Assembly (NCBI GenBank): GCA_963693095.2
Contig: OY843768.1
Location: 992,001 to 1,056,000, forward strand
Direction of reading: 5' to 3'
DNA from: Cenarchaeum sp.
Lineage (GTDB): Archaea; Thermoproteota; Nitrososphaeria; Nitrososphaerales; Nitrosopumilaceae
Length of the DNA stretch: 64,000 nucleotides
Shown here: piece after piece, positions 6,070 through 63,128 of the stretch
Layout of the letters: the number at the start of each line of letters is the position of its first letter
Position numbering within the stretch: position 1 is the first letter of the stretch
Notes under the pieces: model-generated
Databases searched by the model: none
What the model was told of the DNA's origin: nothing
Seen by the model: the letters and a program-made list of their open reading frames with translations, nothing else
Translations under genes and position numbers: made by a program

Positions 6070-6693
6070 ATGGAAGCAGAAGGGCGCACCGTCGAGGAGG
6101 CCAAGACACGGCAGGGTCACGGCAGCGAGTTGCGCGTAAAGGAGCGCGCCATGAACCGTACGCTAAAGGCCAAACTAGCTAGCGATGACCTAATGGCCAG
6201 GCTTAAAAGCACGAAAATAGATCCCAACATTGAGCCCTTTCTGAGGATGCTCTGGGATTATAACCTGATCGACTGTAGCACAAACCCGAAAGACTCAACG
6301 TTAGAGACTCGCATAAAAGTGCAAAAGTTTGTGTATTTTGCCCAAAAATACTTTGGGCTGCAATTTCGCTATAGGCACACAATGTACCTGTATGGCCCGT
6401 ATTCCACCAGGCTTACAGGCGACTATTTCCATATACGAAACATCTGCGACGTTCCAAGCGAGAAGCCCAAAGGGTGGAGCAGGCAAGCGGAATTTCTCGA
6501 CTTTGCAAAAAATCACAACGATGTCAAATGGCTAGAAATTGCCAGCACACTAGTCTATTCACGACTTCACGATCACATAAATGGCTCCGACAATCTGATA
6601 AGATACGTGCAGAAAATAAAGCGCAACTTTCAAAAAGAGTTTGTTGTGCGCGTGCATGACGCGCTAGTCCAGATGGGATTTCTCGGGGAGTGA
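6070..6693 (+). CDS. Panacea/SocA/YwgA-like (DUF4065-like) putative antitoxin, copy 1
   Basis: RIKVQKFVYFAQ...YLYGPYS..L and WLEIAST match the KLQK..Y...YGPYS / LE..AT pattern. Confidence 0.6.
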   Translation: MEAEGRTVEEAKTRQGHGSELRVKERAMNRTLKAKLASDDLMARLKSTKIDPNIEPFLRMLWDYNLIDCSTNPKDSTLETRIKVQKFVYFAQKYFGLQFRYRHTMYLYGPYSTRLTGDYFHIRNICDVPSEKPKGWSRQAEFLDFAKNHNDVKWLEIASTLVYSRLHDHINGSDNLIRYVQKIKRNFQKEFVVRVHDALVQMGFLGE

Positions 6694-7037
6694 GGCAATG
6701 CCGGTGTGGGAGAGGCTTGCATCACACGCACCAGCTACAGACGGGCCATGCGTGGAACCACTCACACAAGTTCTGCAATACCTGCCACGGGATGCACCTG
6801 TTCAAACGCGTTGGGAGTGCAGCCCAGACGATGTTGACGCATGGGCCGACCGTACACGCCAACACTTGTGACGGCTAGGCACGCCTAAATTTCCAAGACT
6901 GCCTTAAATATAATCAAAAGGGCTTAAATGTCCGCGCCGGCTCGCCACGCCATGAAAACGGCAGGCAACACCACACTGGTGGGCAGTCCGGGACAGGGCA
7001 GGCTCACAGTAACGTGTAGAGCGGCGCGGAGGTCGCC

Positions 7038-7580
7038 ATGAACCCCACATCGGAGACCGAGATGGTCATCGACGACTCGTTTGCGTGGATCAAGGACATA
7101 AAGATAAGCCCCAACATTGAGCCATTTCTGAAAATGCTCTGGGATCATGGACTTATCAACTGTGACACAAATCCCGAAGACTCGACGCTGGAGACGCGCA
7201 TAAAGGTGCAAAAGTTTGTCTATTTTGCCCAAAAGTACTTTGGGCTGGATTTTCAATACAATCACGTGATGTACATATATGGACCATACTCACTCGATCT
7301 CACAGGCGACTATTTTCACATCCGGAACATCCGCGACATTCCAAACGGTGGGCTCGAGGGATGGAGCAAGCGGGAAGAGTTTCTCGACTTTGCAAAAAAC
7401 CACAATAGCACGGATTGGCTAGACGTGGCCAGCACGATTATTTATTCACGGTTTGATGATAACATGAAAGATGCAGACATGCTTGTAAAGCACGTGCAGT
7501 TAATCAAAGGAAACTTTCAAAAGGAGTTTGTTGTGCGCGTGCATGACGAGCTAGTCCAGATGGGGTTTCTCGGGGAATGA
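7038..7580 (+). CDS. Panacea/SocA/YwgA-like putative antitoxin, copy 2 (tandem paralogue)
   Basis: Clearly homologous to 6070-6693 (PNIEPFL..LWD, DSTLETRIKVQKFVYFAQKYFGL, near-identical C-terminus VQMGFLGE). Confidence 0.6.
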   Translation: MNPTSETEMVIDDSFAWIKDIKISPNIEPFLKMLWDHGLINCDTNPEDSTLETRIKVQKFVYFAQKYFGLDFQYNHVMYIYGPYSLDLTGDYFHIRNIRDIPNGGLEGWSKREEFLDFAKNHNSTDWLDVASTIIYSRFDDNMKDADMLVKHVQLIKGNFQKEFVVRVHDELVQMGFLGE

Positions 7581-7584
7581 GACA

Positions 7585-8169
7585 ATGTCCTCAGGAATGT
7601 GGATTTTGCCATCCATACCAATTACTGTTGGCATATGGGCAGCCCTATGGAGCATCGAAATTATAGATACGGAATCTCCATGGTCTACAATTATAACAAC
7701 CATATCATTGTATTTAGCAGTTCTAGGAGCCATACTAACATATGAAGGTCGCAAAATCTCACAAAAAATGAAAGAGAGAGACGAAGATAGAGATAATAAA
7801 AAAAGTCACATTGTTGCCAAATATGAAATACCGCACGTTGTCAAAGCGCTCAACACACTCCTTGTAAGCATGGGCAGAACAAAAGCGAATCTGGATCAAC
7901 ATGCCATAAACAAACAAAATCATTTAGAAGAGCCAGGCGAGTACACATACAGGCGGGTCATGATGCACATAGAGGCAATACGCTCAATACAGTCAGATTT
8001 TCGCGAAGCGGGGCTGTCAAAGCACCACAGGCGCCTAGACGGCATACTTGTCAACTTGGACCACATTGGATTCGAGCGCATGGGCAAGGCAAATATGGCA
8101 GTGTTTGAAAGGAGTATCAAAATAATTTTGGACGTGATGAACGAGATTAGGGATGCTGCTGGCACGTAG
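7585..8169 (+). CDS. membrane protein with two N-terminal TM helices and a soluble helical C-terminus
   Basis: Two hydrophobic stretches (ILPSIPITVGIWAALW; IITTISLYLAVLGAIL); starts 4 nt after copy 2; lower GC than flanks. Confidence 0.6.
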   Translation: MSSGMWILPSIPITVGIWAALWSIEIIDTESPWSTIITTISLYLAVLGAILTYEGRKISQKMKERDEDRDNKKSHIVAKYEIPHVVKALNTLLVSMGRTKANLDQHAINKQNHLEEPGEYTYRRVMMHIEAIRSIQSDFREAGLSKHHRRLDGILVNLDHIGFERMGKANMAVFERSIKIILDVMNEIRDAAGT

Positions 8170-15363: not shown

Positions 15364-16911
15364 ATGGCGGCAAGAACGCTCAAAAAGGCGACCCCCAAGA
15401 GGGCAGCCACGACGGCCCGAAAGGCGGCAAAGCCCAAGGCGGCGGCCAAAAAGGCGGCAGTCAAAAAGGCGGCCCCCAAGAGGGCAACTGCTGCCAAGCC
15501 CAAGGCAGCGCCCAAAAAGCCTGCCGTCAAAAAGGCAGTCGTCAAAAAGGCGCCCTCGAGGACCACGGCGGCGAGCGCACGGACACTAGAGGCCCTGGCA
15601 AAAAAGGTCACGGCCGTCTCGGAGGACACGCATGCGCTCTCTGGTGACCTCAGGTCGATGGCCAAGATATTTGGGGACAACCAAAAGATACTCGTCTCGA
15701 TGAAGGGCGTCATGGAGGAGATCGCCGACGCGCTAGACGCAATCCAAAAGCAGTCAAAGAGGATCGGCTCACTAGAGACTGACACGCAGAAGATCTTTGC
15801 GGGCATTGGCGAGATGCGAGCGCACGCGCGAATCATAGCAAAGCTCGACTCACAGTCCGCAAAGATGGAAGAGACGGTTCGCGGGATCAAGGAGCGCTCT
15901 GACTCGGCTAGTGGGCTAGACGAGATATCCAAAAAGGTCGACGAGAGTTTTGGCTCCATAAAGAACAACTCGGAGATGATAATCAGGATCGGCAGGCACA
16001 TCGACGGCATGCGAGAGGACATTGGCGGCCTCTCTACTCGCGCGTCATCAGTAGAGTCGGTTCAGGGCGATCTCGCAAAGCTAAAGACGCTCTTTGAGGA
16101 GGCACAGGCAAGCCATTCCGGTGACGCCGACCTTGCCGCCGAGCTGGGCGCAATGTCAAAAAAGGTCGCCGAGCTCTCGCAGCTTCCCTCAGATGTGGGC
16201 GCGCTCAACAGGAGGCTCGAGGAGATCTCTGGCGCCTCAGGCACGCTAGGACCCATCGTCGAGGAGCTCAAGGAGCAGGTCTCGCGTGTGACCGAGCGCG
16301 CAAGCGCAGGATCTGGGGACATCGAGTCGGTTCGCGCCGAGTTCTCCACGATGCGCGAGGAGGTCACAGGGCGTGCAGGACGCCTAGAGTCCGGCATCGC
16401 CTCAGTAACTGACGCGCTAGGGCGCTCAGAGGGCGCTGTCGCCGAGGTCCACAAAAAAGCAGACGCGCTCTTTGAGGAGGTGCGTGCCCTGCGCGGCGAG
16501 GGCCAAAAGGCGGCGGGATCGTCATCAAGCGAGATAATGGCCCTGTTGCGCCTGTCCGAGTACCAGTCCGGCGTGCGCATGGTCGCCGAGTCAAAGTACG
16601 GCGAGGTCCCTGACCTTGAGCGCATGGCCTCACAGACAGTCGACGTGCTAAACGTCTTTGACCGTCTCGCCGTGGAGACCGGCTCGGAGGTTCGCCTCCC
16701 GCACGGCGTGAGGCAGTGGGCAGTCTCAAAGATACTAGAGTGCGCCGACAGGTGGGAGATACGCTTCTCAGACGTCCTAGGAGTCCTGCGCGACAAGCTT
16801 GGCGTCGCGCTCCTAAAGGAGGCAGTCAGGATGAACCAGGTTCGCGAGATTTACGGCACGCGCGCAGTAGATGAGCTCGAGGGCATTCTCGCCGAGCACG
16901 CAGGCCCCTAG
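15364..16911 (+). CDS. long coiled-coil protein with a Lys/Ala/Pro-rich (histone H1-like) N-terminus
   Basis: KKAAPK/KPKAA repeats over about 65 aa, then heptad-rich helical sequence and a compact C-terminal domain. Confidence 0.75.
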   Translation: MAARTLKKATPKRAATTARKAAKPKAAAKKAAVKKAAPKRATAAKPKAAPKKPAVKKAVVKKAPSRTTAASARTLEALAKKVTAVSEDTHALSGDLRSMAKIFGDNQKILVSMKGVMEEIADALDAIQKQSKRIGSLETDTQKIFAGIGEMRAHARIIAKLDSQSAKMEETVRGIKERSDSASGLDEISKKVDESFGSIKNNSEMIIRIGRHIDGMREDIGGLSTRASSVESVQGDLAKLKTLFEEAQASHSGDADLAAELGAMSKKVAELSQLPSDVGALNRRLEEISGASGTLGPIVEELKEQVSRVTERASAGSGDIESVRAEFSTMREEVTGRAGRLESGIASVTDALGRSEGAVAEVHKKADALFEEVRALRGEGQKAAGSSSSEIMALLRLSEYQSGVRMVAESKYGEVPDLERMASQTVDVLNVFDRLAVETGSEVRLPHGVRQWAVSKILECADRWEIRFSDVLGVLRDKLGVALLKEAVRMNQVREIYGTRAVDELEGILAEHAGP

Positions 16912-22675: not shown

Positions 22676-23674
22676 CTACTCGGTCGAGTCTGGCCACATC
22701 ATCTTGCGCATGCGTCGGCCGACCTCCTCGATCTGGTGTGAATCGAGTGCCTTCATGTGGGACTCGAACGAGTCCTTGCCGCCAGACGCGTATGCCGACA
22801 CCCATTCAGAGTTGAACGTGCCGTCGCGTATCTCGCCGAGAACTCCGGCCATGCGCTCCTTTGCCTGCGCGTCGATCACGCGAGGCCCGCGCGTGAGGCC
22901 TCCGTATCGTGCCGTCTCGCTGACGCGCCTGTACATTCCGGCGACGCCATAGCGCTGAATCATGTCAACGATGAGCTTTAGCTCGTGGAGAACCTCAAAG
23001 TATGCTATCTCGGGCTGGTATCCGGCCTCGACTAGCGTCTCAAACGCGTTGATGACCATCGAGGCCGAGCCCCCGCACAGGTCAGCCTGCTCGCCAAACC
23101 AGTCAGTCTCGACCTCCTCCTGAAACGTCGTGCGTATGACTCCTGCGCGCGTGCTGCCGATCGCCTTTGCGAGGGCGAGTGTGCGATCCCACGCGTTGCC
23201 GGTGTGGTCCTGGTGAACCGCGACGATCGATGGCGTGCCAAACCCGTCAAGGTACGTCTCGCGAACCTTGGAGCCGGGCCCCTTTGGCGCCACCATGATA
23301 ACGTCAATGTCAGACGGCACGTCTATCCACTTCCAGTGGATCGCCGCCGCGTGCGAAAAGGAGAGCGCGTTGCCTGCAGAGAGCCCCTGCGCAATCTCCT
23401 CGCCGTACACCTTGGCCTGGACCATATCGGGTATGAGGACGTGGATGACGTCCGCTGCGGCGCACGCCTCGCGCACGCCCATGACCGTGTGACCGTCAGC
23501 AGTCGCCTTTTTCCAGCTCGCCCCGCCCTCCTTTAGGCCCACAATGACGTCGAGTCCAGAGTCCTTCATGTTGTTGGCCTGCGCGTCGCCCTGTATGCCA
23601 TATCCGATAACTGCGACCTTTTGGCCATTGAGCGGCTCGAGGCTAGTGTCTGCGTCTCCCCAGGTCTGCACCAT
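22676..23674 (-). CDS. ilvC: ketol-acid reductoisomerase
   Basis: IGYGIQG, MVAPKGPG, ETDWFGEQ..LCGG, AYFE.LHE. Confidence 0.97.
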   Translation of the reverse strand: MVQTWGDADTSLEPLNGQKVAVIGYGIQGDAQANNMKDSGLDVIVGLKEGGASWKKATADGHTVMGVREACAAADVIHVLIPDMVQAKVYGEEIAQGLSAGNALSFSHAAAIHWKWIDVPSDIDVIMVAPKGPGSKVRETYLDGFGTPSIVAVHQDHTGNAWDRTLALAKAIGSTRAGVIRTTFQEEVETDWFGEQADLCGGSASMVINAFETLVEAGYQPEIAYFEVLHELKLIVDMIQRYGVAGMYRRVSETARYGGLTRGPRVIDAQAKERMAGVLGEIRDGTFNSEWVSAYASGGKDSFESHMKALDSHQIEEVGRRMRKMMWPDSTE

Positions 23675-23766
23675 TTCAGGGCATGCTCCATTTCGCGCAA
23701 ATATTAACCAATGAGTGCGTTAGGGCTACCGTCATTTATAAAGACGGCGAGTCTCCCCGTGGCCTG

Positions 23767-23871
23767 ATGAGCGAGGACGAGTCTGATAGCAAGGCAGAGG
23801 CAGCCGAGCCAGAGAAGCCAAAGAAAAAGCCAGTCGAGATTGAGCTTGGTGGCAGCATGCGCTACAATTGA
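23767..23871 (+). CDS. 34-aa micro-peptide 1 (MSEDESDSKAEAAEPEKPKKKPVEIELGGSMRYN)
   Basis: Own TATA box about 30 nt upstream; reading frame preserved across four copies. Confidence 0.6.
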   Translation: MSEDESDSKAEAAEPEKPKKKPVEIELGGSMRYN

Positions 23872-24034
23872 CACAGGATTCCCGAGTGTCATCCTGCAAA
23901 CCCATAGTAAAGACCCCAAATGTGTCCAAGGCACGCAGCGCAGATCTGCCCAACCAAAAACCGGAACATGGTCTAGCCGCCACGCACATATGCCTCTGAA
24001 ATATTTATAAAGACGGCGAGCACACAGGCTGCTG

Positions 24035-24130
24035 ATGAGCGAGGACGAGTCTGATAGCAAGACCAAGACAGCCGAGCCAAAGAAAAAGCCGGTCAAGCTG
24101 GAGTTTGGTGGCCTTGTGCGCTACATTTGA
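24035..24130 (+). CDS. 31-aa micro-peptide 2 (MSEDESDSKTKTAEPKKKPVKLEFGGLVRYI)
   Basis: Paralogue of peptide 1 differing by an in-frame 9-nt indel; own TATA box. Confidence 0.6.
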   Translation: MSEDESDSKTKTAEPKKKPVKLEFGGLVRYI

Positions 24131-24284
24131 CACAAGATTCCCGAGAGTGCCACATCATAAATCCACAGTAAAGACTCCAAATGTGTCCAAGGCGTGCAGC
24201 ACAAATTCACCCAACCCAAAACTGTAACATGCCCCACACATGCCTCTGAAATATTTATAAAGACGGCTAATGTATAGGCTGCTG

Positions 24285-24380
24285 ATGAACGAGGACGAGT
24301 CCGATAGCAAGACCAAGACAGCCGAGCCAAAGAAAAAGCCGGTCAAGGTGAAGTTTGGTGGCCTTGTGCGTGCCGTTTGA
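24285..24380 (+). CDS. 31-aa micro-peptide 3 (MNEDESDSKTKTAEPKKKPVKVKFGGLVRAV)
   Basis: Paralogue with own TATA box; directly upstream of the membrane protein gene. Confidence 0.6.
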   Translation: MNEDESDSKTKTAEPKKKPVKVKFGGLVRAV

Positions 24381-24416
24381 AGCAAGATTCCCGGGCAGCG
24401 TCACGGAGGGGCATAG

Positions 24417-24992
24417 TTGAACCCCAAAGACATCTATCACGCGACACAAGAGCAGATTCGTCACCACGATACGGTTTTGGAGGGGCAGAAGGCAAGGGCT
24501 CGCACACTCCTTAGCGTCGGTGCCGTGCTTCTCGGTATTATGGCCATCAGTCTGGGAAACTATGCAGGATTTGTCCAGGGAAATTATGCTGGAGTCATAA
24601 ACGATCCTCAAATGCTGCTGGTTCAGGCAATAGCGGTCACAATGATGCTCGGTGTGGCCGGACTCGGAGGGGCAATGACGTCAGTGATATTTTCTGCACG
24701 TGCGCTATCTGTGTCATACGCACATCAGCCCATAATGTCTGAAAACTTTAGAAATGGCGACTACACGGAGGACGAGATTTTGGATGCCCTGGTAAACATG
24801 CCTGAACACGAGACATACATGATGCTAACCAAGTCTTGTATTCAGGCACTGCGCAGCCGCGAGCAGGACCTGGACAAGATTGGGGCAAGGGCATCAATGG
24901 CACAAACGAGCCTGCTGTCTGGACTGGTGCTTGCCGGCACGGGTGCCATGGTTACGCTTGCCGTGTTCGTCCCGGCGCTTCTGGCCGTGTAG
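24417..24992 (+). CDS. 3-TM membrane protein, tentatively PycTM/DUF5706-like architecture
   Basis: TTG start after a GGAGGGG SD; helix-KARARTLL-TM1, TM2 ending SVIFSARAL, soluble loop, C-terminal TM. Confidence 0.6.
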   Translation: MNPKDIYHATQEQIRHHDTVLEGQKARARTLLSVGAVLLGIMAISLGNYAGFVQGNYAGVINDPQMLLVQAIAVTMMLGVAGLGGAMTSVIFSARALSVSYAHQPIMSENFRNGDYTEDEILDALVNMPEHETYMMLTKSCIQALRSREQDLDKIGARASMAQTSLLSGLVLAGTGAMVTLAVFVPALLAV

Positions 24993-25037
24993 CGGATCGC
25001 GCGTTGCGGCGGCACGCTGCCCAACTTTAATATAATT

Positions 25038-25718
25038 ATGATCGGCGGCAGGCGCTCAGATAGGCCGTTGCTTGCGATCTTTGACGTCGAGGGTGTGCTC
25101 TTTGATGCCGAGTACCTCCCCATGCTCGCCGAGGAGCGCGGCAAGGAGGACGAGATTTGGGAGATCACGAGGCGAGGCATAGAGGGCACGATCAACTGGG
25201 AGGAGGGCCTCCGAAAGAGGGTCGACATACTGCGCGGCATAGACTATGGCACGTGTGAGCGCGTTGCTGACGCGCTGCCCATAATGACAGGCGCGCACGA
25301 GCTCTGCTCGACGCTAAAGGCCGCCGGATGGCGCATCATGGCAGTCTCGGGCGGATTTACGATAATGACTGACCGCCTAAAGCGCGAGCTCGGCCTAGAC
25401 ACCATACTCTCCAACGAGCTCGTCTTTGAGGACAACCAGCTTGACGGCGTCCGGATAAAGGTCGGCTCGGACAAGGCGTATGCGGCCTCTGCGGCAATCG
25501 CCGAGATGGGCGAGCGCGTCGAGGACACAGTCGCCATAGTCGACGGGGCCAACGACATAAAGCTCTTTGACATATGTGGCCTCGGAATCGCGTTTCGGGC
25601 ACAGGACATCGTCAGGGAGCAGGCCAACGCGGTACTAGAGAGAAAGGACCTCATCGATGCGCTCGACGTGATAAACAAGCACTATGGACTGGCCCTCAAG
25701 GCGCCATCCCGCGCCTAG
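25038..25718 (+). CDS. serB: phosphoserine phosphatase (HAD)
   Basis: IFDVEGVLFD, EITRRGIEG, VSGGF, DGAND; true start may be TTG 25068. Confidence 0.9.
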   Translation: MIGGRRSDRPLLAIFDVEGVLFDAEYLPMLAEERGKEDEIWEITRRGIEGTINWEEGLRKRVDILRGIDYGTCERVADALPIMTGAHELCSTLKAAGWRIMAVSGGFTIMTDRLKRELGLDTILSNELVFEDNQLDGVRIKVGSDKAYAASAAIAEMGERVEDTVAIVDGANDIKLFDICGLGIAFRAQDIVREQANAVLERKDLIDALDVINKHYGLALKAPSRA

Positions 25719-33491: not shown

Positions 33492-34034
33492 GTGTTGCCA
33501 TCCATAAAGACGCTAAGCGACGTCAAGAACGAGTTTCTTGCGAGGCGCGAGCTCGTGTGCGACTTTGATGACGCCTCTGGCCGGATAAAGAGGGCAGAGG
33601 CGATCGAGGCAGTCTCCAAGGAGCACGGCCTAGACGGCAAGCTCATCATACCGGTCAGGCTGCAAAACCACGTGGGCCGGACACACACGACAGGGACGTT
33701 CTTTGTGTACGAGGACGAGGCTGTCGCAAAGGCCCACATTGACCCCTCGGTCATGGAGCGGATTGAAAAGTCAAAGGCCGCCGACAAGGGAGCAGCAGAC
33801 GATCAGGGCGACGGCAAGGCCGACGCAGCAGGCGGAGAGGAAAAGTCCGAGGCTGCAGGAACCGATGACAAGGGCGCAGCAGACGACAAGGCTGAAGGCA
33901 AGGCCGACACACAGGGCGGCGAGGAAAAGTCTGAGGCTGCAGGAACCGATGACAAGGGCGCAGCAGACGACAAGGCCGAAGCCAAGGCCGACGCACAGGG
34001 CGGCGAGGAGAAGCCCAAGGAGGGCGGCGAGTGA
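33492..34034 (+). CDS. rps24e: 30S ribosomal protein S24e with an acidic repetitive tail
   Basis: N.FL.RRE N-terminal motif; directly upstream of rps27ae (TGATG overlap). Confidence 0.85.
33783..34020 (+). repeat. 84-bp (28-aa) coding tandem repeat, about 2.8 copies
   Basis: DKGAADD...[15 protein letters not shown] is repeated in the S24e tail. Confidence 0.85.
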
Positions 34035-45258: not shown

Positions 45259-45639
45259 CTACATGGGCAGGAAGGGCAGGACAAACAGAGAGAGCGCAAC
45301 CATGGCTCCCGCACCGGCAAGCACAAGTCCGGACAGGAGGCTCAGCTGTGCCATGTGCACCCTGGCCCCAATCCTGGCCATGTCCTGCTCGCGGCTGTAC
45401 AGCGCAATAAAACATGACCTGATTAGCATCACGTATCTCGTGTGATCTGACATTTTTATCAGTGTGTCTAGCATACCGTCATCCACCTTGCCGCCTTTTA
45501 CCAAGTTTTCAGACGATATGGGCTGGTATATGCATGAAACAGATAGCGCCCGTGCAGAAAAGATCATCGATATCATCGCCCCTGCAAGTCCGGCCATGCC
45601 GAGCATTATTGTGGCCGCTATTGCCTGAACTGGCAGCAT
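45259..45639 (-). pseudogene. N-terminally deleted paralogue of the 24417-24992 membrane protein
   Basis: DPQML.VQAIA.T.MLG...IFSARALSVS...SREQD...LLSGLVLAG matches; about 60 N-terminal codons are missing directly after GCATAGTTGA. Confidence 0.7.
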
Positions 45640-45686
45640 TTGAGGATCAACTATGCGCCTCCGTGATGTCACTTGTGGGCATTGCC

Positions 45687-45791
45687 TCAAACGGCGCGCA
45701 CATAGCCGCCAATCTCCAAGAGCTCTGGCTTTTTCTTTCTCTCCTTTGGCTCGGCTGCCTTGGCCTTGCCATCAGACTTGTCCTTGCCCAT
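45687..45791 (-). CDS. 34-aa micro-peptide 4 (MGKDKSDGKAKAAEPKERKKKPELLEIGGYVRAV)
   Basis: Homologue of peptides 1-3 with an intact frame and its own TTTATAA box about 30 nt upstream. Confidence 0.6.
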   Translation of the reverse strand: MGKDKSDGKAKAAEPKERKKKPELLEIGGYVRAV

Positions 45792-46055
45792 CAGATGGCC
45801 GGAGACTCGGCGTCGTTATAAATATTCCAGGGTCATGCGCGTATGAGGCCAGCACCTCTCCGCCCATTTGGACAAATGGGCGCGATCTCGACCAATCCAT
45901 TTACCGCTGCGGCGCCTGCCTGGGCATGAGCGGTGGCGGTGCTGATCTCGTAATGTGCCAGTGCCGGCAAGGCGTAGACAGCAATGCTGGTGCCACGCGT
46001 GGCGGGGTTAGCCCTCGTCATCTGACATGTAGGGGCAGAGCCTGGCGAACTCGAG

Positions 46056-46354
46056 CTCGGCGGCGGGCGCCCCACGTTGCCTGGATCGGGCGCGAGGAGC
46101 ACCTGAGCAACCGCGGCGAGTGGCTGTGGGACAACGGCTACGGCCGGAGGCCGTCAGGAGAGACGACGTTCTCCACGATCAAGCTGGTGTTCCGCGACCA
46201 CGTGAGGGCGCTGAACTGGGGCCAGGTGGTCCGCGAGGTGGCATTCATGGCGTACGCGTACAACCGGCTGATCGACATGGCGGGCGGTCCGGGGTGAGCC
46301 GCGGCCTGGGGCGCCATGCGTGGCACGCGCGGTCACCGGTTATGAAACAACGCC
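46056..46354 (+). mobile_element. IS5-family (IS903-like) remnant: transposase C-terminus and right inverted repeat
   Basis: W..DNGYGRRPSGETTFSTIK (Y-x2-R-x3-E-x6-K signature); ends in GGTTATGAAACAACGCC (46338-46354). Confidence 0.7.
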
Positions 46355-46436
46355 GTACACGATGACCCTGCCATACCACCTTGAGGCACAAGAAACCTCA
46401 TGGCATCATGGAACAGGCCAGTCATGCGCGTTCCCG

Positions 46437-47456
46437 TCACCCAACCCTGCGTATCCTCTCAGAGCGCTGACCGGGAACGTCAATCACGTACCTTCCGTCG
46501 CCGAGCTGCTCAAACCACTCATAGAGAACCTGCACGTTTCCCGTGAGATCCCGCCGGCTCGGAACCGGCACGTCAGTGCAGTTGTCCTGTATCCACTCCT
46601 TTACACGTCCAAAGTACGTCTCTGGGTCTATGAATGAGTCCATCTGTTGCACAAACGGGTGCGCAAAGAATCGTGATGCCAGCTGTGCGCGAAACTCTGC
46701 CTCTGACAGACCCAGCTCTATACCATAGTTTGCCAGGTCATGGAACACACATGCTGCCACCTCGTCATCATCAGACGGCTCTAGTCCCTGCCCCATTCTC
46801 GCGTATCCGGACACGAGGTCATCAACGCTCCTAGTCATCGGCAGTGCCGATACCAGAAACTTGTCTGGCTGCATTCTCACAAGCGAGTCAAGCTCATCCT
46901 CTGTCTTTGGTGGCTGCGGCTGTTTCCTAATCCATGCAGAAAGCTTGTCATACATTTCATCATCCACAAGCCGTGATTCGCAACGTATGCGCTCAAAGTA
47001 CACACGGTCATCCGGTGAGGCCTCTTTTACAAGCACGCCCATCTCATGGTTGCCGCCCTCGTGCATTCCCCTGCGCGACATGTTTCCCGTGCAGAGCACA
47101 TAGTGGCGCAGTCCGACCGAGACAACCTTTAGGTGGATTTTAGAGTTCACGTAGAGCCTGATGTCCTGCTCCTTGCAGTACGGATACAGGGACAGCTCGG
47201 ATGAGCCTGACACAAGATCCCTAGTGTCCCACGTCGTGATGATCACCACCTTGGAGTCGATGCCGTCTAGGAGCTCCCTGACCACGTCTGTCCGGATATA
47301 GGGGACGATGATGTGGATCGTCTCGCCGCTGCGCGAGTGCTCCTCAATATAGGCCCTGACGCGCGCATAGAGGGGGCTCTGAAACGTGGGCTGCTCGTCG
47401 GTCAATCCGGCGCGCACGCGCGGGGTTCCCGTATATGGATGGTTGGAAGAGGCCAC
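46437..47456 (-). CDS. phospholipase D-fold (BfiI/NgoFVII-like) putative nuclease
   Basis: IIVPYI, IHLKV (HxK), CTGNMS..G...NHE.G; located in a defence island. Confidence 0.7.
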   Translation of the reverse strand: MASSNHPYTGTPRVRAGLTDEQPTFQSPLYARVRAYIEEHSRSGETIHIIVPYIRTDVVRELLDGIDSKVVIITTWDTRDLVSGSSELSLYPYCKEQDIRLYVNSKIHLKVVSVGLRHYVLCTGNMSRRGMHEGGNHEMGVLVKEASPDDRVYFERIRCESRLVDDEMYDKLSAWIRKQPQPPKTEDELDSLVRMQPDKFLVSALPMTRSVDDLVSGYARMGQGLEPSDDDEVAACVFHDLANYGIELGLSEAEFRAQLASRFFAHPFVQQMDSFIDPETYFGRVKEWIQDNCTDVPVPSRRDLTGNVQVLYEWFEQLGDGRYVIDVPGQRSERIRRVG

Positions 47457-60357: not shown

Positions 60358-60597
60358 GGATCAGAACACCGGGGACTACATAATAAACATATCTCAAAAC
60401 ATGGACTTCAATTACGCATGAAATTAGAGCTCACGCTAGCGAGTACACATGATGATGCGTAGGCCAAGGCTCCCAGGTGCCAGAGGCACCACGTGGCGCG
60501 CACATAGGTAGCAGGCACTCCCAGGCCGCATCTTGGCTACCACGTATTTAAAAACCCGAAATAACGCTTATACGATCAACAGCCCGCTCCAAGTCCA

Positions 60598-61245
60598 ATG
60601 TCAGGACAAGAGCACGCCACGCCATGCCCTACTTGCGGGAGCACCAGGGCCGCAGCGGAAGCCGACAGGGTGCCAAAAAAGGAGATCAGCGCGTATGAAG
60701 GCCGGATGAATCGGCTCAGGCTAGAGGCCGAGGGCGGACCACTCGCCCCCATACCAGGATCCGCAGTCCCCATATTCCATGTCCTCTGCGACGCCGGCGT
60801 GGTTGACTGCGGCATGTCTCCGAGCAATGGAAGCGTCGCGGAGCGCCTGGCACTGAACATACTGGTATACTTTGCAAAGCACAGGTTTGGGTGTCCCGGA
60901 CTGGAGAGGTTTGACTACGAGTGGAGCATATCAAGTCCCCACTCGATCAAGCTCGAGGTCGACCTTGATGACATTACTGATCTCCATTCAGAGCCGGCCC
61001 AAGAGTGGGACAGAAAGGACGAGTTTGTCAAGTTTGCGCAAAAGCACGGCAACGACGCCGAATGGCTCCAGATTGCCTCGACGATATGCCACATAGATGA
61101 CGAGATGATGAAGGATTCCGTGACGCTCACGCGAGATGAGATGATCGACGAGGCGCGCCAGTGGTACATATTCAATTCCAAGGCAGTGCCAGGGGTGTAT
61201 GACGATATTGTCGACATGCTAGCAAGGACACGGGGCGACGCGTAG
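60598..61245 (+). CDS. divergent Panacea/YwgA-like protein, copy 3
   Basis: LVYFAKHRFG...W....P.S..L, EFVKFAQKHGNDAEWLQIAST aligns with copies 1-2 (EFLDFAKNHNDVKWLEIAST); N-terminal CPTCG. Confidence 0.55.
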   Translation: MSGQEHATPCPTCGSTRAAAEADRVPKKEISAYEGRMNRLRLEAEGGPLAPIPGSAVPIFHVLCDAGVVDCGMSPSNGSVAERLALNILVYFAKHRFGCPGLERFDYEWSISSPHSIKLEVDLDDITDLHSEPAQEWDRKDEFVKFAQKHGNDAEWLQIASTICHIDDEMMKDSVTLTRDEMIDEARQWYIFNSKAVPGVYDDIVDMLARTRGDA

Positions 61246-61344
61246 CCCAAGGCGCCGGACACTGCATAAGTGCCACATGAAGCGCACATTAGGCAGCAAG
61301 AGTCCATAAACCGTGCTACGCCTACCGCGTATTTAAAAACCCGA

Positions 61345-62436
61345 TGTATTGTACAAAAAGTAGGAGCGGGGGCCAGAGGGCTTGCCGGGCGCGGATCCGG
61401 GAGCCCGCGGAGGGCCTTCGGGTCCGGCAGGCTGCCGAAACACACGTTTGGGGGCCTCCGGCGCCGGCGCGCCATGCCGGTCAGGAGGCTGGACGCGCGG
61501 GCGCTCCGGTACATCGCGAGGACGCTTGCGACCAGGAGCACCGGGGCAGTGGCGCGCGAGCTGGGGATCTCGCCGTCGTGGGCCCGCAAGCTCCGCGCGC
61601 ACTGCCGGCGGACCGGCGCGCCGCCGGAGCCGCGGCCGATGGGGAGGCCGCGCAGGCCGATCACGCGGGAGCAGGCCGACGAGGTCCTCGCCGCGCACTC
61701 GCGCGACCCCGTCGGCGTGGTGCACCTGGTCAGGCTCATGCGGCTCAACAACTCAAAAATAGCGTACGGCGCGGCGTACCGCATATTGTCTGCGGAGGGA
61801 CTGGTCAGCAGCTCGCCGGCGAGGTCGAGGAGGCGCAAGTGGGTGAGGTTCGAGAGAAAGTACTCCAACGCGATGTGGCACGTGGACTGGCACATAATGA
61901 AATACGGCCCCCTGAGGGGCTCGCACCTCATAGTGTTCCTCGACGACGCGTCGAGGTGCGTGACGGGGTTCGGTGTCTTCCCCGAGGCCACGTCGGGCAA
62001 CACTGTGCTCGTGCTGCACCACGCGATCGGGAGGTTCGGCAAGCCGGCGCAGGTGCTCTCGGACCACGGGACGCAGTTCACGGCGAGCCGGCGCGGCGCC
62101 CCGCGCCGCAGCTGGAAGCCGACGCTCTTCGAGCGGGAGCTGCTCGACGCCGGGATAAAGCACGTCATGGCGCGCGTCGGCCACCCCCAGACCAACGGCA
62201 AGGTCGAGAGGTTCTTCCGGACGCTCGAGACGGAGATCGACCGCCATGGCGGGGTCGCCGAGTTCATCGGGCACTACAACGAGGAGAGGCTCCACTTCTC
62301 CCTCGACATGGAGACCGGCGAGACGCCCCTGCTGGCCTTCAGGAGGCGGAGGGCCGACGGGCGGGTCCGGGCGGAGAACCCAGGGTGGATGGAGGTGGAC
62401 TCGGATGGGTAGCGCTCCTACTTTCCGTATAATACA
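61345..62436 (+). mobile_element. IS481-like insertion sequence (1092 bp) with 24-bp TG...CA inverted repeats and a 15-bp target duplication
   Basis: IRL TGTATTGTACAAAAAGTAGGAGCG, IRR CGCTCCTACTTTCCGTATAATACA; TATTTAAAAACCCGA at 61330-61344 and 62437-62451. Confidence 0.92.
61474..62412 (+). CDS. DDE (rve) transposase, single ORF
   Basis: N-terminal HTH (VARELGIS), WHVD, LDDASR, SDHGTQF, PQTNGKVERF, YNEER.H.SL. Confidence 0.92.
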   Translation: MPVRRLDARALRYIARTLATRSTGAVARELGISPSWARKLRAHCRRTGAPPEPRPMGRPRRPITREQADEVLAAHSRDPVGVVHLVRLMRLNNSKIAYGAAYRILSAEGLVSSSPARSRRRKWVRFERKYSNAMWHVDWHIMKYGPLRGSHLIVFLDDASRCVTGFGVFPEATSGNTVLVLHHAIGRFGKPAQVLSDHGTQFTASRRGAPRRSWKPTLFERELLDAGIKHVMARVGHPQTNGKVERFFRTLETEIDRHGGVAEFIGHYNEERLHFSLDMETGETPLLAFRRRRADGRVRAENPGWMEVDSDG

Positions 62437-62489
62437 TATTTAAAAACCCGAGATAACGCTTATACGATCAGCGGCCCGCTCCAAGGCCA

Positions 62490-63128
62490 ATGTCCGAGCA
62501 AGAGCACGCCACGCCATGCCCGACGTGCGGGAGCACCAGGGCCGCAGCGGAGGTCGGCAGGGTGCCAAAAAAGGAGATTAGCGCGTATGAAGGCCGGATG
62601 ATTCGGCTCAGGCTCGAGGCCAAGGGCGGGCCACTCGCCCCCATACCGGGATCCGCTGTCCCCATATTCCACGTCCTCTGTGACGCCGGCGTGATTGACT
62701 GTGACATGTCCCCAAAGAACGAGGACAACGACACTCGCCTGTCCCTGAACATGCTGGTCTACTTTGCAAAGCACAGGTTTGGGTGTCCGGGGCTGGAGAG
62801 GTATGTCTTTGATTGGAGCGCGGTGAGCACATTCTCGATGAAGCTAGAGCACGACTTTGATGACATGGCAGAATTTCATTCAGAACCAGCCCAAGAGTGG
62901 GACAGAAAGGCCGAGTTTGTCAAGTTTGCGCGCAAGCACGGCAACGACGTCGAATGGCTCCAGATAGCCTCGGCTATATGTTACATAGAGGACGAGATGA
63001 TGAAGGATTCCGTGACGCTCACGCGAGATGAGATGATCGACGAGGCGTGCCAGTGGTACATATTCCATCCCGAGGCCGTGCCAGGTGTGTACGACGACAT
63101 TGCGGGTTCGCTGTTGAGGACGGGGTGA
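62490..63128 (+). CDS. divergent Panacea/YwgA-like protein, copy 4 (close paralogue of copy 3)
   Basis: Near-identical N- and C-termini to 60598-61245, including the duplicated promoter region. Confidence 0.55.
   Translation: MSEQEHATPCPTCGSTRAAAEVGRVPKKEISAYEGRMIRLRLEAKGGPLAPIPGSAVPIFHVLCDAGVIDCDMSPKNEDNDTRLSLNMLVYFAKHRFGCPGLERYVFDWSAVSTFSMKLEHDFDDMAEFHSEPAQEWDRKAEFVKFARKHGNDVEWLQIASAICYIEDEMMKDSVTLTRDEMIDEACQWYIFHPEAVPGVYDDIAGSLLRTG

What the first reader, a model, noticed from the sequence alone, without database searches (positions are those of the whole stretch)
23735..24992. Array of self-promoted GG-motif micro-peptides feeding into a PycTM-like membrane protein
Seen: three tandem units, each with a TTTATAAA box, a leaderless-type ATG and a 31-34-aa ORF; a fourth copy lies at 45687-45791. 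All share a charged, disordered N-terminus, KKKP-x-x-h-x-h-GG and exactly five variable C-terminal residues (SMRYN, LVRYI, LVRAV, YVRAV; Arg invariant). Indels inside the ORFs are in-frame, which suggests coding selection. At both loci the last peptide precedes the same 3-TM gene, whose layout resembles Pycsar PycTM/DUF5706 effectors, but no cyclase is present. Inference, as alternatives: double-glycine leader + pentapeptide signals, peptide antitoxins or decoys gating a membrane effector, or Pup-like disordered tags. I do not recognise this as a described system.
Basis: partly seen in the sequence, partly recalled or inferred. Interest (0 to 1): 0.75.

Follow-up and report, generated by a model that had tools for sequence, protein, structure and literature searches.

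The report
Stacked micro-proteins before PycTM-like membrane gene
An archaeon carries small cassettes in which a roughly 30-residue charged protein is made just ahead of a membrane protein distantly related to a known anti-virus effector, and leftover copies of the small gene pile up in tandem, which suggests an undescribed toxin/immunity-like pair.

Summary
There are three tandem units at 23735-24416 and a fourth copy at 45791-45687 (-). Each has a TATA box 31-32 nt before an ATG and a 31-34-aa ORF ending GG-x2-R-x2. A fifth copy lies elsewhere in the genome.

The ORFs look coding. Orthologue dN/dS is 0.03-0.27, indels are in frame, no RNA family matches and there is no RNA fold signal.

The 191-aa gene (24417-24992) has no direct Pfam or PADLOC hit. 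A 103-sequence family profile nevertheless aligns end to end with true PycTM (PF18967): hhalign 95.9%, E 5e-9, against 4% for a reversed control. No dedicated cyclase exists.

The membrane family is patchy in the class (23 of 301 genomes). Only in this genus is it multi-copy, and here it nearly always follows a small, TATA-positioned leaderless ORF.

Units 1 and 2 keep 49-nt relics of the membrane gene's start. The locus-2 membrane gene is truncated, yet its peptide is intact. The cassette is 65-80% identical between two species whose flanks are about 95% identical.

Best reading (about 0.45): the peptide is a cognate cytoplasmic inhibitor (antitoxin or immunity-like) of a PycTM-like membrane effector, and cassette replacement leaves orphan peptide genes. 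Double-glycine leader and Pup-like readings are not supported. Binding, toxicity and expression are untested.

The parts
23735..23742 (+). TATA box of unit 1 (TTTATAAA), 5' edge 32 nt before the ATG
   Evidence: Sequence. The same spacing (29-33 nt) is seen in 14 of 19 cassettes of the genus, against 45 of 5719 start codons in these loci.
23767..23871 (+). Micro-ORF u1, 34 aa, tail GGSMRYN. It is the positional orthologue of the single peptide of species G004. Here it is an orphan: no membrane gene follows.
   Evidence: u1 vs the G004 orthologue: 27 of 34 residues identical, changes by codon position 7/0/6, dN/dS 0.27.
23872..23920 (+). Relic of the peptide-to-membrane-gene junction and the first codons of a lost membrane gene. 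The Shine-Dalgarno and TTG are mutated.
   Evidence: Local alignment, position for position, with the junction before 24417 and with that of G004 (spacer positions 0-49 vs 0-48). The remaining ~80 nt score within the shuffle range.
24004..24011 (+). TATA box of unit 2, 31 nt before the ATG
   Evidence: Sequence
24035..24130 (+). Micro-ORF u2, 31 aa, tail GGLVRYI; an orphan, followed by a second junction relic
24254..24261 (+). TATA box of unit 3, 31 nt before the ATG at 24285
   Evidence: Sequence
24285..24380 (+). Micro-ORF u3, 31 aa, tail GGLVRAV; first cistron of the intact cassette
24405..24411 (+). Shine-Dalgarno-like GGAGGGG, 7 nt before the TTG start of the membrane gene
   Evidence: Sequence. 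The same GGAGG + TTG is seen in the G004 orthologue and in the third locus of this genome.
24417..24992 (+). 191-aa membrane protein, a remote relative of the Pycsar effector PycTM. The model shows a long N-terminal helix running into membrane helix 1, membrane helix 2, a loop plus a short helix, then a long helix ending in membrane helix 3.
   Evidence: AF2 model with pLDDT 80.7. Family profile vs PycTM profile: 95.9%, E 5.4e-9, 146 columns. No direct Pfam or PADLOC hit.
45815..45822 (-). TATA box (TTTATAAC on the minus strand) of the fourth unit, 31 nt before its ATG
   Evidence: Sequence; (L009)
45687..45791 (-). Micro-ORF u4, 34 aa, tail GGYVRAV; intact. It differs from the G004 copy in two codons (one amino-acid change).
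   Evidence: (33 of 34 residues identical)
45259..45690 (-). Truncated copy of the membrane gene. It lacks about residues 2-62 and is out of frame with the retained SD+TTG. The duplicated segment also includes the first bases of the downstream HAD-hydrolase gene.
   Evidence: G000 vs G004: 5 non-synonymous and 1 synonymous codon difference in 127 codons.

Best explanation
This is a genus-specific two-gene cassette. A TATA box drives a leaderless mRNA. Its first cistron is a 30-50-residue hydrophilic protein with an acidic start, a basic middle and a short hydrophobic core of the type h-x-F-G-G-h-h-R. After a 36-nt spacer with a Shine-Dalgarno site comes a 190-aa, three-helix membrane protein that is a remote relative of PycTM, the membrane-disrupting effector of the Pycsar anti-virus system. 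Inference: the membrane protein is a latent membrane toxin or effector. The small protein is its cognate cytoplasmic inhibitor (antitoxin or immunity-like), standing in for the cyclic-nucleotide control that a cyclase gives canonical PycTM. Cassettes are exchanged between strains. When a new cassette displaces an old one, or when the membrane gene decays, the harmless protective peptide gene survives with its promoter. That would give the stack of three peptide genes before one membrane gene, and the intact peptide before a truncated membrane gene at 45.7 kb. Shown: the anatomy, the coding signal, the remote homology, the restriction of the pair to one genus, the hypervariability and the orphan pattern. 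Inferred: binding, toxicity, inhibition and any role in virus defence.
For: Coding: L013 vs the two L008 copies change by codon position 1/4/15 and 1/2/12, dN/dS 0.03-0.04. u1 vs its G004 orthologue is 7/0/6, dN/dS 0.27. L014-L018 is 0.24 and L016-L019 is 0.48. The only indel is 9 nt. Promoter position: a TATA-like octamer lies 29-33 nt before an in-frame start in 14 of 19 cassettes, against 45 of 5719 start codons, and in 5 of 11 further loci. Not a structured RNA: 0 Rfam matches at E<=1; fold z-scores are 0.05, 0.97 and 0.97. Pairing: all 7 membrane paralogues of this genome, and the 17 full-length loci of the genus that were inspected, have a small hydrophilic ORF ending from 4 nt inside to about 50 nt before the membrane gene. 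The peptide profile hits only 10 places, all in this genus and all directly before a membrane gene or its relic; 0 of 147 genomes of 26 other genera have a hit. Other genera: 1 of 17 homologous loci has any TATA-positioned small ORF (an unrelated 21-aa one). In 6 of 17 the membrane gene itself sits at leaderless distance from a TATA. Tree: the 19 genus paralogues form one clade (100/99), and the peptide classes follow the membrane-protein clades (A 99/98, B 100/99, E 96/98, F 97/94, I 100/100). Homology to PycTM: 95.9%, E 5.4e-9, 146 collinear columns, reversed control 4.1%. The smaller profile A3 gives 63.9%, against a maximum of 5.7% in 30 block shuffles. The order of helices is the same in both AF2 models. 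In the ESM Atlas, 8 of 30 neighbours fall in a set where 11% of members carry PF18967. Selfish or defence-like behaviour: the family occurs in 23 of 301 genomes of the class, single-copy outside this genus and sometimes with internal stops. Neighbours of distant members include a ParE toxin, two DNA methylases, three kinds of transposase and ThsB-TIR, with no cyclase among 45 ORFs. Hypervariability: the cassette is 65-80% identical between G000 and G004, while the flanks are about 92-100% identical per 60-nt window. Membrane-gene dS is 0.77 with dN/dS 0.35. A second haplotype, with one peptide and 612 replaced letters, is present in contigs of all 4 runs laid; these come from one study, so this is not independent support. 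Orphan asymmetry: three intact peptide genes (u1, u2, u4) stand beside deleted or truncated membrane genes. No intact membrane gene without a peptide was seen in the genus. A tandem peptide duplicate also exists in species G002 (L008).
Against: No experiment or RNA data bear on it; no RNA run was listed. Peptide-membrane protein binding could not be tested because the complex predictor never accepted the job. The homology to PycTM is remote. No direct HMM hit exists; 0 of 98 relatives carry PF18967 at E<=0.01. The genus-only profile A2 gives 0.8-2.3%. Membrane helices can inflate profile scores. Homologues in other genera live without the peptide, so the membrane protein need not be toxic by itself. 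Within subfamily A, paralogue dN/dS is 0.65-1.33. This may be diversifying selection or weak constraint. Homology between the peptide classes (GG, GK, SG, DA cores) rests on inspection only. The 5:1 non-synonymous:synonymous count at locus 2 is a small number. Orphan peptides would also be kept if they had an independent function. Labels shared by kin on a tree do not prove co-evolution.
Confidence: 0.45

Rival explanations
1. The small protein is a positive partner of a non-toxic membrane protein: a subunit, sensor, adaptor or trigger, for example one that couples the PycTM-like protein to a cytoplasmic signal. The orphan copies are then simply duplicated genes.
For: The same pairing, promoter and coding evidence applies. 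Homologues elsewhere exist without the peptide, so the membrane protein may be harmless alone.
Against: This reading does not explain why peptides stay intact where the membrane gene is deleted or truncated. It does not explain why the cassette is a divergence hot spot between near-identical flanks, nor the defence- and mobile-type neighbourhoods of distant members.
Confidence: 0.2
2. The micro-ORFs are regulatory upstream ORFs. Their translation, rather than their product, tunes expression of the membrane gene, and the tandem promoters raise transcription.
For: The leaderless first cistron lies 36 nt before a TTG-started gene with its own Shine-Dalgarno site. No run of five or more T occurs between the units, so read-through into the membrane gene is plausible.
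Against: Amino-acid sequence is conserved well beyond what reading-frame maintenance needs (dN/dS 0.03-0.27 for orthologues, second codon positions 0-4 changes). Orphan units with no downstream gene keep intact ORFs.
Confidence: 0.12
3. The peptides are precursors cleaved at GG: either a double-glycine leader releasing a C-terminal pentapeptide signal, or a Pup/ubiquitin-like tag exposed by trimming. The membrane protein acts in export or processing.
For: GG is followed by exactly five residues with an invariant Arg in 7 copies of subfamily A. The N-terminus is charged and probably disordered.
Against: No C39 peptidase and no Pup ligase were found in a 99.6%-complete genome. The membrane protein has no peptidase or ABC domain. 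Known double-glycine leaders are N-terminal, with the product after them (recalled knowledge). In sister cassettes the GG is followed by 2, 4 or 24 residues or is absent.
Confidence: 0.08
4. The ORFs are not genes. The repeats are duplicated promoter and 5'-UTR segments, or a small RNA, and the ORFs are open by chance in a GC-rich, stop-poor sequence.
For: Intergenic parts of units 1 and 2 are as similar (82%) as the ORFs (80-91%), so within this genome the repeat is simply young. Antisense frames are also open (a 130-aa ORF at 23704-24096 on the minus strand).
Against: Between species and paralogues, substitutions fall on sense third positions (1/4/15, 1/2/12, 7/0/6). The ORF, its length class and its TATA spacing persist across cassettes whose membrane proteins are only 20-30% identical. 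No Rfam match and no fold signal were found.
Confidence: 0.05

Closest known systems
Pycsar effector PycTM (Pfam PF18967, formerly DUF5706)
   Same: Same size class (165 vs 191 aa). Same order of elements: N-terminal helix running into membrane helix 1, membrane helix 2, a loop with a conserved Pro, short helices, then a long helix ending in membrane helix 3. Profile-profile match 95.9%, E 5.4e-9, over 146 columns. A canonical cyclase+PycTM pair exists in a related genus of the same family (L052).
   Different: No direct HMM hit to PF18967 or to the PADLOC PycTM models. No adjacent cyclase in any of the cassettes examined. A small leaderless ORF precedes the gene instead. The gene is multi-copy in one genus.
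Type II toxin-antitoxin operons (small labile protein antitoxin encoded first, toxin second)
   Same: Two-gene operon with the small hydrophilic protein first. Patchy distribution, paralogue expansion and decay. Orphan first genes beside lost second genes. Mobile and defence-type neighbourhoods of relatives.
   Different: The peptide has no recognisable DNA-binding antitoxin domain (no Pfam hit). The putative toxin is a 3-helix membrane protein, not a cytoplasmic enzyme. Toxicity and neutralisation are untested.
Orphan immunity-gene arrays next to polymorphic toxin or bacteriocin loci (recalled knowledge; no call)
   Same: A stack of small, divergent, promoter-bearing protective-type genes left beside one functional effector. 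Strain-level cassette replacement between conserved flanks.
   Different: Those systems act between cells and carry secretion or delivery genes; none is seen here. Here the orphans lie upstream of the effector, not downstream.
Double-glycine leader peptides of class II bacteriocins and quorum signals
   Same: A GG dipeptide preceded by a hydrophobic-x-hydrophobic pattern.
   Different: The GG lies 5 residues from the C-terminus, not at the end of an N-terminal leader. No C39 peptidase or ABC exporter was found in the genome. The GG is not conserved across sister cassettes.

Membership tests
Pycsar system | A pyrimidine cyclase (PycC) encoded next to the effector | tested here: not met
   Neighbours of locus 1 are ketol-acid reductoisomerase, a HAD hydrolase and F420 ligase. 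Neighbours of locus 2 are a PPIase and a histidine kinase. None of 45 neighbour ORFs of distant homologues is a cyclase. The one class-III cyclase of the genome (PADLOC PycC 2e-33) lies 295 kb away, has no effector beside it, and is conserved in 23 of 24 genomes of the family (one per genus) regardless of whether the membrane family was found there.
Pycsar system | Effector activated by cCMP/cUMP | not testable with these tools
   Needs biochemistry.
PycTM (PF18967) | Match to the family HMM above its curated cut-off (27.2 bits) | tested here: not met
   No hit for the window protein at E<=1. None for 17 genus paralogues at E<=10. None for 98 wider relatives at E<=0.01. The six-frame search of the genome gives only an unrelated 13-bit match.
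PycTM (PF18967) | Remote homology by profile-profile comparison over the whole domain | tested here: met
   103-sequence family alignment vs 20 true PycTM: probability 95.9%, E 5.4e-9, 146 columns; reversed control 4.1%. The 30-sequence profile gives 63.9%; 30 shuffles give at most 5.7%. The genus-only profile gives 0.8%.
Type II toxin-antitoxin | Two-gene operon with a small first gene and the second gene a growth-arresting toxin that the first neutralises by binding | tested here: inconclusive
   The operon layout is met. Toxicity and neutralisation are not testable here. Complex prediction could not be run.
Double-glycine leader peptide system | C39 peptidase-domain ABC exporter that cleaves after GG | tested here: not met
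   PF03412 was not found in the 99.55%-complete genome; the control rings in 7 of 14 reference genomes.
Double-glycine leader peptide system | N-terminal leader ending in GG, followed by the mature product | tested here: not met
   The GG lies 5 residues from the stop codon. In sister cassettes 2, 4 or 24 residues follow, or there is no GG.
Pup-like tagging | Pup ligase (PafA/Dop) in the genome | tested here: not met
   PF03136 was not found; the control rings in Corynebacterium.

The most novel reading that the evidence does not exclude
A cyclase-independent branch of the PycTM effector superfamily has been re-wired in one archaeal genus. Each membrane effector is held in check by its own roughly 30-residue leaderless peptide rather than by a nucleotide signal. 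The cassettes behave as exchangeable, strain-specific addiction or abortive-infection modules. Their replacement leaves 'fossil' immunity peptides stacked in front of the current effector. This would be a peptide-gated membrane toxin system not yet described in archaea.
Probability: 0.35. Interest if true: 0.75.

Novelty: new variant of a known kind. Interest (0 to 1): 0.62.

Why it matters
PycTM-type effectors are known only as the killing arm of cyclic-pyrimidine signalling. How they are gated and how they damage membranes is still poorly understood. A natural variant with no cyclase, paired instead with a tiny cognate protein, would give a simple two-component handle on that gating: a peptide-binding site and specificity residues in the five-residue tail. 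It would also add a protein-antitoxin/membrane-toxin module to the sparse catalogue of archaeal defence or addiction systems. The stacked orphan peptides and the strain-level cassette replacement between housekeeping genes offer a readable record of an arms race in an uncultured ammonia-oxidiser lineage. The locus also shows that 31-34-codon leaderless genes, which most gene callers drop, can be the conserved half of a system.

Tried and rejected
It was never accepted (queue full, or no usable answer), so there is no result either way.

RNA evidence: no RNA holder was listed for the stretch. The four runs laid are contigs from one study and say nothing on expression.

Foldseek against the PDB gave no match at E<=0.001. 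VIA-align wide gave only generic long-helix bundles, Z about 10, which is within the stated background for helical models.

Viral contigs: no relative of the membrane protein was found.

Word-based homologue search with the membrane protein found only 4 close relatives.

Peptide queries were too short for the search for homologous proteins and the search for related loci. The six-frame profile search of 151 genomes was used instead.

The ESM Atlas gave no usable hit for the peptide. Earlier findings of this scan returned nothing.

A C/D-box small-RNA reading (CTGATGA ... CTGA at the ORF starts) was considered and dropped. There is no Rfam hit, no second box pair is visible in the sequence, and substitutions follow codon positions.

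Stop-codon read-through or an ancestral fusion was considered because the peptide and membrane ORF share a frame in subfamilies A and B (gaps of 36 or 39 nt). It was dropped because the other cassettes have gaps of -4, 1, 2, 8, 13, 14, 46, 49 and 50 nt.

The spacer beyond the 49-nt junction relic could not be traced to any part of the membrane gene.

Literature: full-text searches for 'PycTM' (11 papers; listing seen, passages read in PMC13069673 only), 'DUF5706' (0 papers), 'Pycsar'+'antitoxin'+'transmembrane effector' (2 papers, listing only) and one genus-name+'toxin-antitoxin' search (17 papers, listing only). None showed a small-peptide partner of a PycTM-like protein. Supplements were not opened.
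Full report
WHAT IS THERE

The window is part of a 2.0-Mb, 60% G+C archaeal genome (G000:C1:992001-1056000). Between a ketol-acid reductoisomerase gene (22676-23674, minus strand) and a HAD-hydrolase gene (25038-25718) lie three tandem units of about 250-268 bp.

Each unit starts with TTTATAAAGACGGC. An ATG follows 31-32 nt after the 5' edge of the TATA box. It opens an ORF of 34, 31 and 31 codons:
- u1, 23767-23871
- u2, 24035-24130
- u3, 24285-24380

The products run acidic (MSEDESDSK), then basic (KKKP), then h-x-h-GG plus five residues (SMRYN, LVRYI, LVRAV).

After u3 comes a 36-nt spacer with GGAGGGG, 7 nt before a TTG. A TAG stands directly before that TTG in the same frame, so the 191-codon membrane gene 24417-24992 must start there.

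A fourth unit lies on the minus strand at 45822-45687 (tail YVRAV). A fifth lies outside the window at G000:C1:237616-237708 (tail LIRDN), 36 nt before a full paralogue of the membrane gene.

A strict motif scan of all six frames of the genome finds only the four window copies. The bare tail motif alone occurs 80 times, so it is the whole pattern that is specific.

ARE THE MICRO-ORFS GENES?

Within this genome the repeat is young. The non-coding parts of units 1 and 2 are as alike (82%) as the ORFs, so the copies cannot show selection by themselves. Relatives can. Comparisons below give changes at codon positions 1/2/3:

| Comparison | Changes at positions 1/2/3 | dN/dS |
|---|---|---|
| u1 vs single positional orthologue in species G004 (27 of 34 residues identical) | 7/0/6 | 0.27 |
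| G001 copy vs first G002 copy (sister subfamily ...DPKKILLKLGGKMPYW) | 1/4/15 | 0.04 |
| G001 copy vs second G002 copy | 1/2/12 | 0.03 |
| L014 vs L018 | 15/7/16 | 0.24 |
| L016 vs L019 | 9/8/11 | 0.48 |
| Paralogues inside subfamily A | mostly first-position Glu/Lys flips | 0.65-1.33 |

The subfamily-A values mean either diversification or weak constraint. I count them as evidence against strong purifying selection there.

Other points:
- The one indel between units is 9 nt.
- A TATA-like octamer lies 29-33 nt before an in-frame start of the small ORF in 14 of 19 cassettes of the genus. The same is true of only 45 of 5719 start codons in the same loci.
- Five of 11 further loci pass the same strict test.

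This spacing puts the transcription start at or next to the start codon, which means leaderless mRNAs; that step rests on established knowledge of archaeal promoters. Rfam gives no match at E<=1. The three transcripts fold no better than shuffles (z 0.05, 0.97, 0.97). I conclude that the ORFs are very probably translated first cistrons. Direct RNA or protein evidence is lacking, because no RNA run was listed.

THE MEMBRANE PROTEIN

The protein has no Pfam or PADLOC match. The same is true of 17 paralogues at E<=10. None of 98 wider relatives carries PF18967 at E<=0.01. The PF18967 model run over the genome finds nothing relevant.

An exhaustive profile search shows a real family: at least 150 representative clusters at E<=0.001, 58 at E<=1e-10.

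A true Pycsar locus (cyclase plus PycTM) exists in a related genus (L052). I used its PycTM and 19 relatives that all carry PF18967 as a test profile:

| Query profile | hhalign probability vs PycTM profile |
|---|---|
| Genus-only (A2) | 0.8% |
| 30-sequence family (A3) | 63.9% |
| 30 block shuffles of the PycTM profile | at most 5.7% |
| Reversed controls | 3.8% and 11.0% |
| 103 full-length family members | 95.9% (E 5.4e-9, 146 collinear columns covering nearly the whole protein) |
| Reversed control for the 103-member profile | 4.1% |

The two AF2 models have the same order of elements:
- This protein (pLDDT 80.7): H3-57, H66-98, loop, H119-127, H130-190.
- PycTM (pLDDT 71.3): H3-42, H51-75, loop, two short helices, H111-159.

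The ESM Atlas places 8 of 30 neighbours in a set where 11% of members carry PF18967. Structure searches against the PDB give only generic helical bundles.

The protein is not a member of PF18967 by the family's own threshold.

NO DEDICATED CYCLASE

No cyclase is in the window or among 45 neighbour ORFs of distant homologues. The genome has one class-III cyclase that matches PADLOC PycC models (2e-33). Three facts speak against it as a partner:
- It lies 295 kb from locus 1.
- It has no effector beside it.
- It is conserved at 47-90% identity in 23 of 24 genomes of the family (one per genus), whether or not the membrane family was found in them.

I therefore do not count it as a partner, though a trans-acting role is not excluded.

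THE PAIR IS A CASSETTE OF ONE GENUS

With the single protein, matches occur in 4 of 41 relatives, all in the window's genus: 7 matches in G000, 17 in G001, 9 in G002 and 4 in G004. None occur in G003, which is 91% complete.

With the family profile, 23 of 301 genomes of the class have a match (10 of 67 genera). Outside the genus the match is almost always a single one, and several have internal stops.

In the genus, all 17 full-length loci inspected, and all 7 loci of G000, have a small hydrophilic ORF ending from 4 nt inside to about 50 nt before the membrane gene.

These ORFs differ widely. Some carry a zinc-ribbon-like N-terminus. As judged by eye, they share a core of the type [KR]-h-x-h-[G/S/D]-[G/K/A]-x-h-h. 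Examples are KLEFGGLVRY, LKLGGKMPYW, VKLGGLVLE, RLFSGKLIRV, RITFGKARFV, MELGGPKFASL and RMFFDAPLIAS. The sequences are too short for a statistical test of homology.

After the GG come 5, 4, 2 or 24 residues, so 'GG plus five' is a feature of one subfamily only.

In 17 loci of other genera, the same algorithm finds one unrelated 21-aa ORF. In 6 of the 17, the membrane gene itself sits at leaderless distance from a TATA. The peptide profile hits only its ten input copies and nothing in 147 genomes of 26 other genera.

A maximum-likelihood tree used 19 genus paralogues and 4 outgroups. I left out the two truncated copies, one partial copy and the 11 loci fetched later. The tree puts the genus copies in one clade (100/99). 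The peptide classes follow the membrane-protein clades. The pair has therefore been duplicated as a unit since one origin. Kin share labels, so this is not proof of co-evolution.

HOW THE ARRAY AROSE

The first 49 nt after the stop codons of u1 and u2 align position for position with the junction before 24417 and with the first codons of the membrane gene. The Shine-Dalgarno and TTG are destroyed there. The remaining 80 nt or so match nothing.

Species G004 has one peptide (tail SMRYN, like u1) followed directly by its membrane gene. G000 and G004 compare as follows:
- About 94-95% nucleotide identity through the reductoisomerase gene and u1.
- 92-100% per 60-nt window in the downstream genes.
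- 65-80% across the membrane gene (59% protein identity, dS 0.77, dN/dS 0.35).

Contigs of all four runs laid (one study, possibly the source sample) hold a second haplotype. It follows the reference up to 23886 with 33 differences, then has 612 other letters and rejoins at 25011. That corresponds to one peptide plus a different membrane gene.

The simplest reading is cassette replacement by recombination between conserved flanks, with older peptide genes left behind.

At the second locus, the peptide, its TATA, the SD and the TTG are intact. About 61 codons of the membrane gene are missing and the rest is out of frame. The duplicated segment even includes the first bases of the HAD gene. G004 has the same arrangement at about 96% identity. 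Between the two species there are 5 non-synonymous and 1 synonymous codon differences in 127 codons. That fits decay, but the numbers are small. Species G002 also has a tandem peptide duplicate.

MECHANISM

The following is shown:
- a leaderless small gene plus a PycTM-like membrane gene in one operon;
- expansion and patchiness;
- a divergence hot spot;
- defence- and mobile-type company for distant members (ParE, methylases, transposases, ThsB-TIR);
- the asymmetry that peptide genes outlive membrane genes, never the reverse, in the genus.

From this I infer, at about 0.45, that the membrane protein is a latent membrane-damaging effector, as PycTM is held to be (recalled from the Pycsar literature; passages seen only in PMC13069673). 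I further infer that the peptide is its cognate inhibitor.

No run of five or more T occurs inside the array. The three promoters may therefore also read through and give peptide in excess over effector. That step is speculation.

Rivals:
- positive subunit or adaptor (0.20)
- regulatory upstream ORF (0.12)
- GG-processed signal or tag (0.08), with no C39 peptidase and no Pup ligase
- non-coding repeat (0.05)

The complex predictor never accepted the job, so binding remains untested.

NOVELTY

Full-text searches found no description of a small-peptide partner for a PycTM-like protein. I saw listings, plus passages of one paper, and opened no supplements.

I rate it a new variant of a known kind. 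The effector superfamily and the logic of a small protein antitoxin are known. Three things are not: the pairing, the loss of the cyclase, and the stacked orphan peptides in an archaeon.

Noticed in passing
G000:C1:720666-721451 (outside the window; locus L053/L054): A 262-aa class-III cyclase matches PADLOC PycC models (E 2e-33) but has no effector gene beside it. About 1 kb of ORF-poor sequence follows it. It is conserved in 23 of 24 genomes of the family (one per genus). It looks like a 'housekeeping' PycC-like cyclase of unknown role.
   Followed up: partly
L052:626-1848 (genome G124, a related genus): A canonical Pycsar pair: a 242-aa cyclase overlapping by 4 nt a 165-aa PycTM (PF18967, 54.5 bits). 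It was the only such hit in 301 genomes of the phylum sampled.
   Followed up: partly
L030:213-2064 (genome G228): A distant member of the membrane family lies divergently next to a ThsB-type TIR protein (E 2e-16) and an '8xMP' octameric membrane protein (E 4e-36). This may be a TIR-linked effector arrangement.
   Followed up: no
window 15406-15562: Run of 15-nt periodic repeats (AAGGCGGC.GCCAAAA type) that would encode a Lys/Ala-rich repeat region (family D4).
   Followed up: no
window 33778-34029: Three tandem 84-nt repeats, 75-83% identical to the first copy. The sequence is rich in GAC/GGC/AAG codons (family D7).
   Followed up: no
window 60542-63102: Two segments 1892 nt apart share three blocks of 84-280 nt at 87-91% identity. 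This is probably a recent tandem gene duplication (families D1, D3, D10).
   Followed up: no
window 6087-7587: Two segments 887 nt apart share blocks of 172-300 nt at 71-78% identity; an older tandem duplication (families D2, D5).
   Followed up: no
window 45653-47456: Next to the truncated cassette there is a 214-aa ORF with no Pfam hit. There is also a 338-aa ORF on the minus strand with only a weak PLD-like match (E 9e-4, below cut-off). Neither is characterised.
   Followed up: partly
window 23704-24096 (-): A 130-aa antisense ORF spans units 1 and 2. It is open because the sense codons are GAN/AAG-rich. Substitution patterns favour the sense frame.
   Followed up: partly
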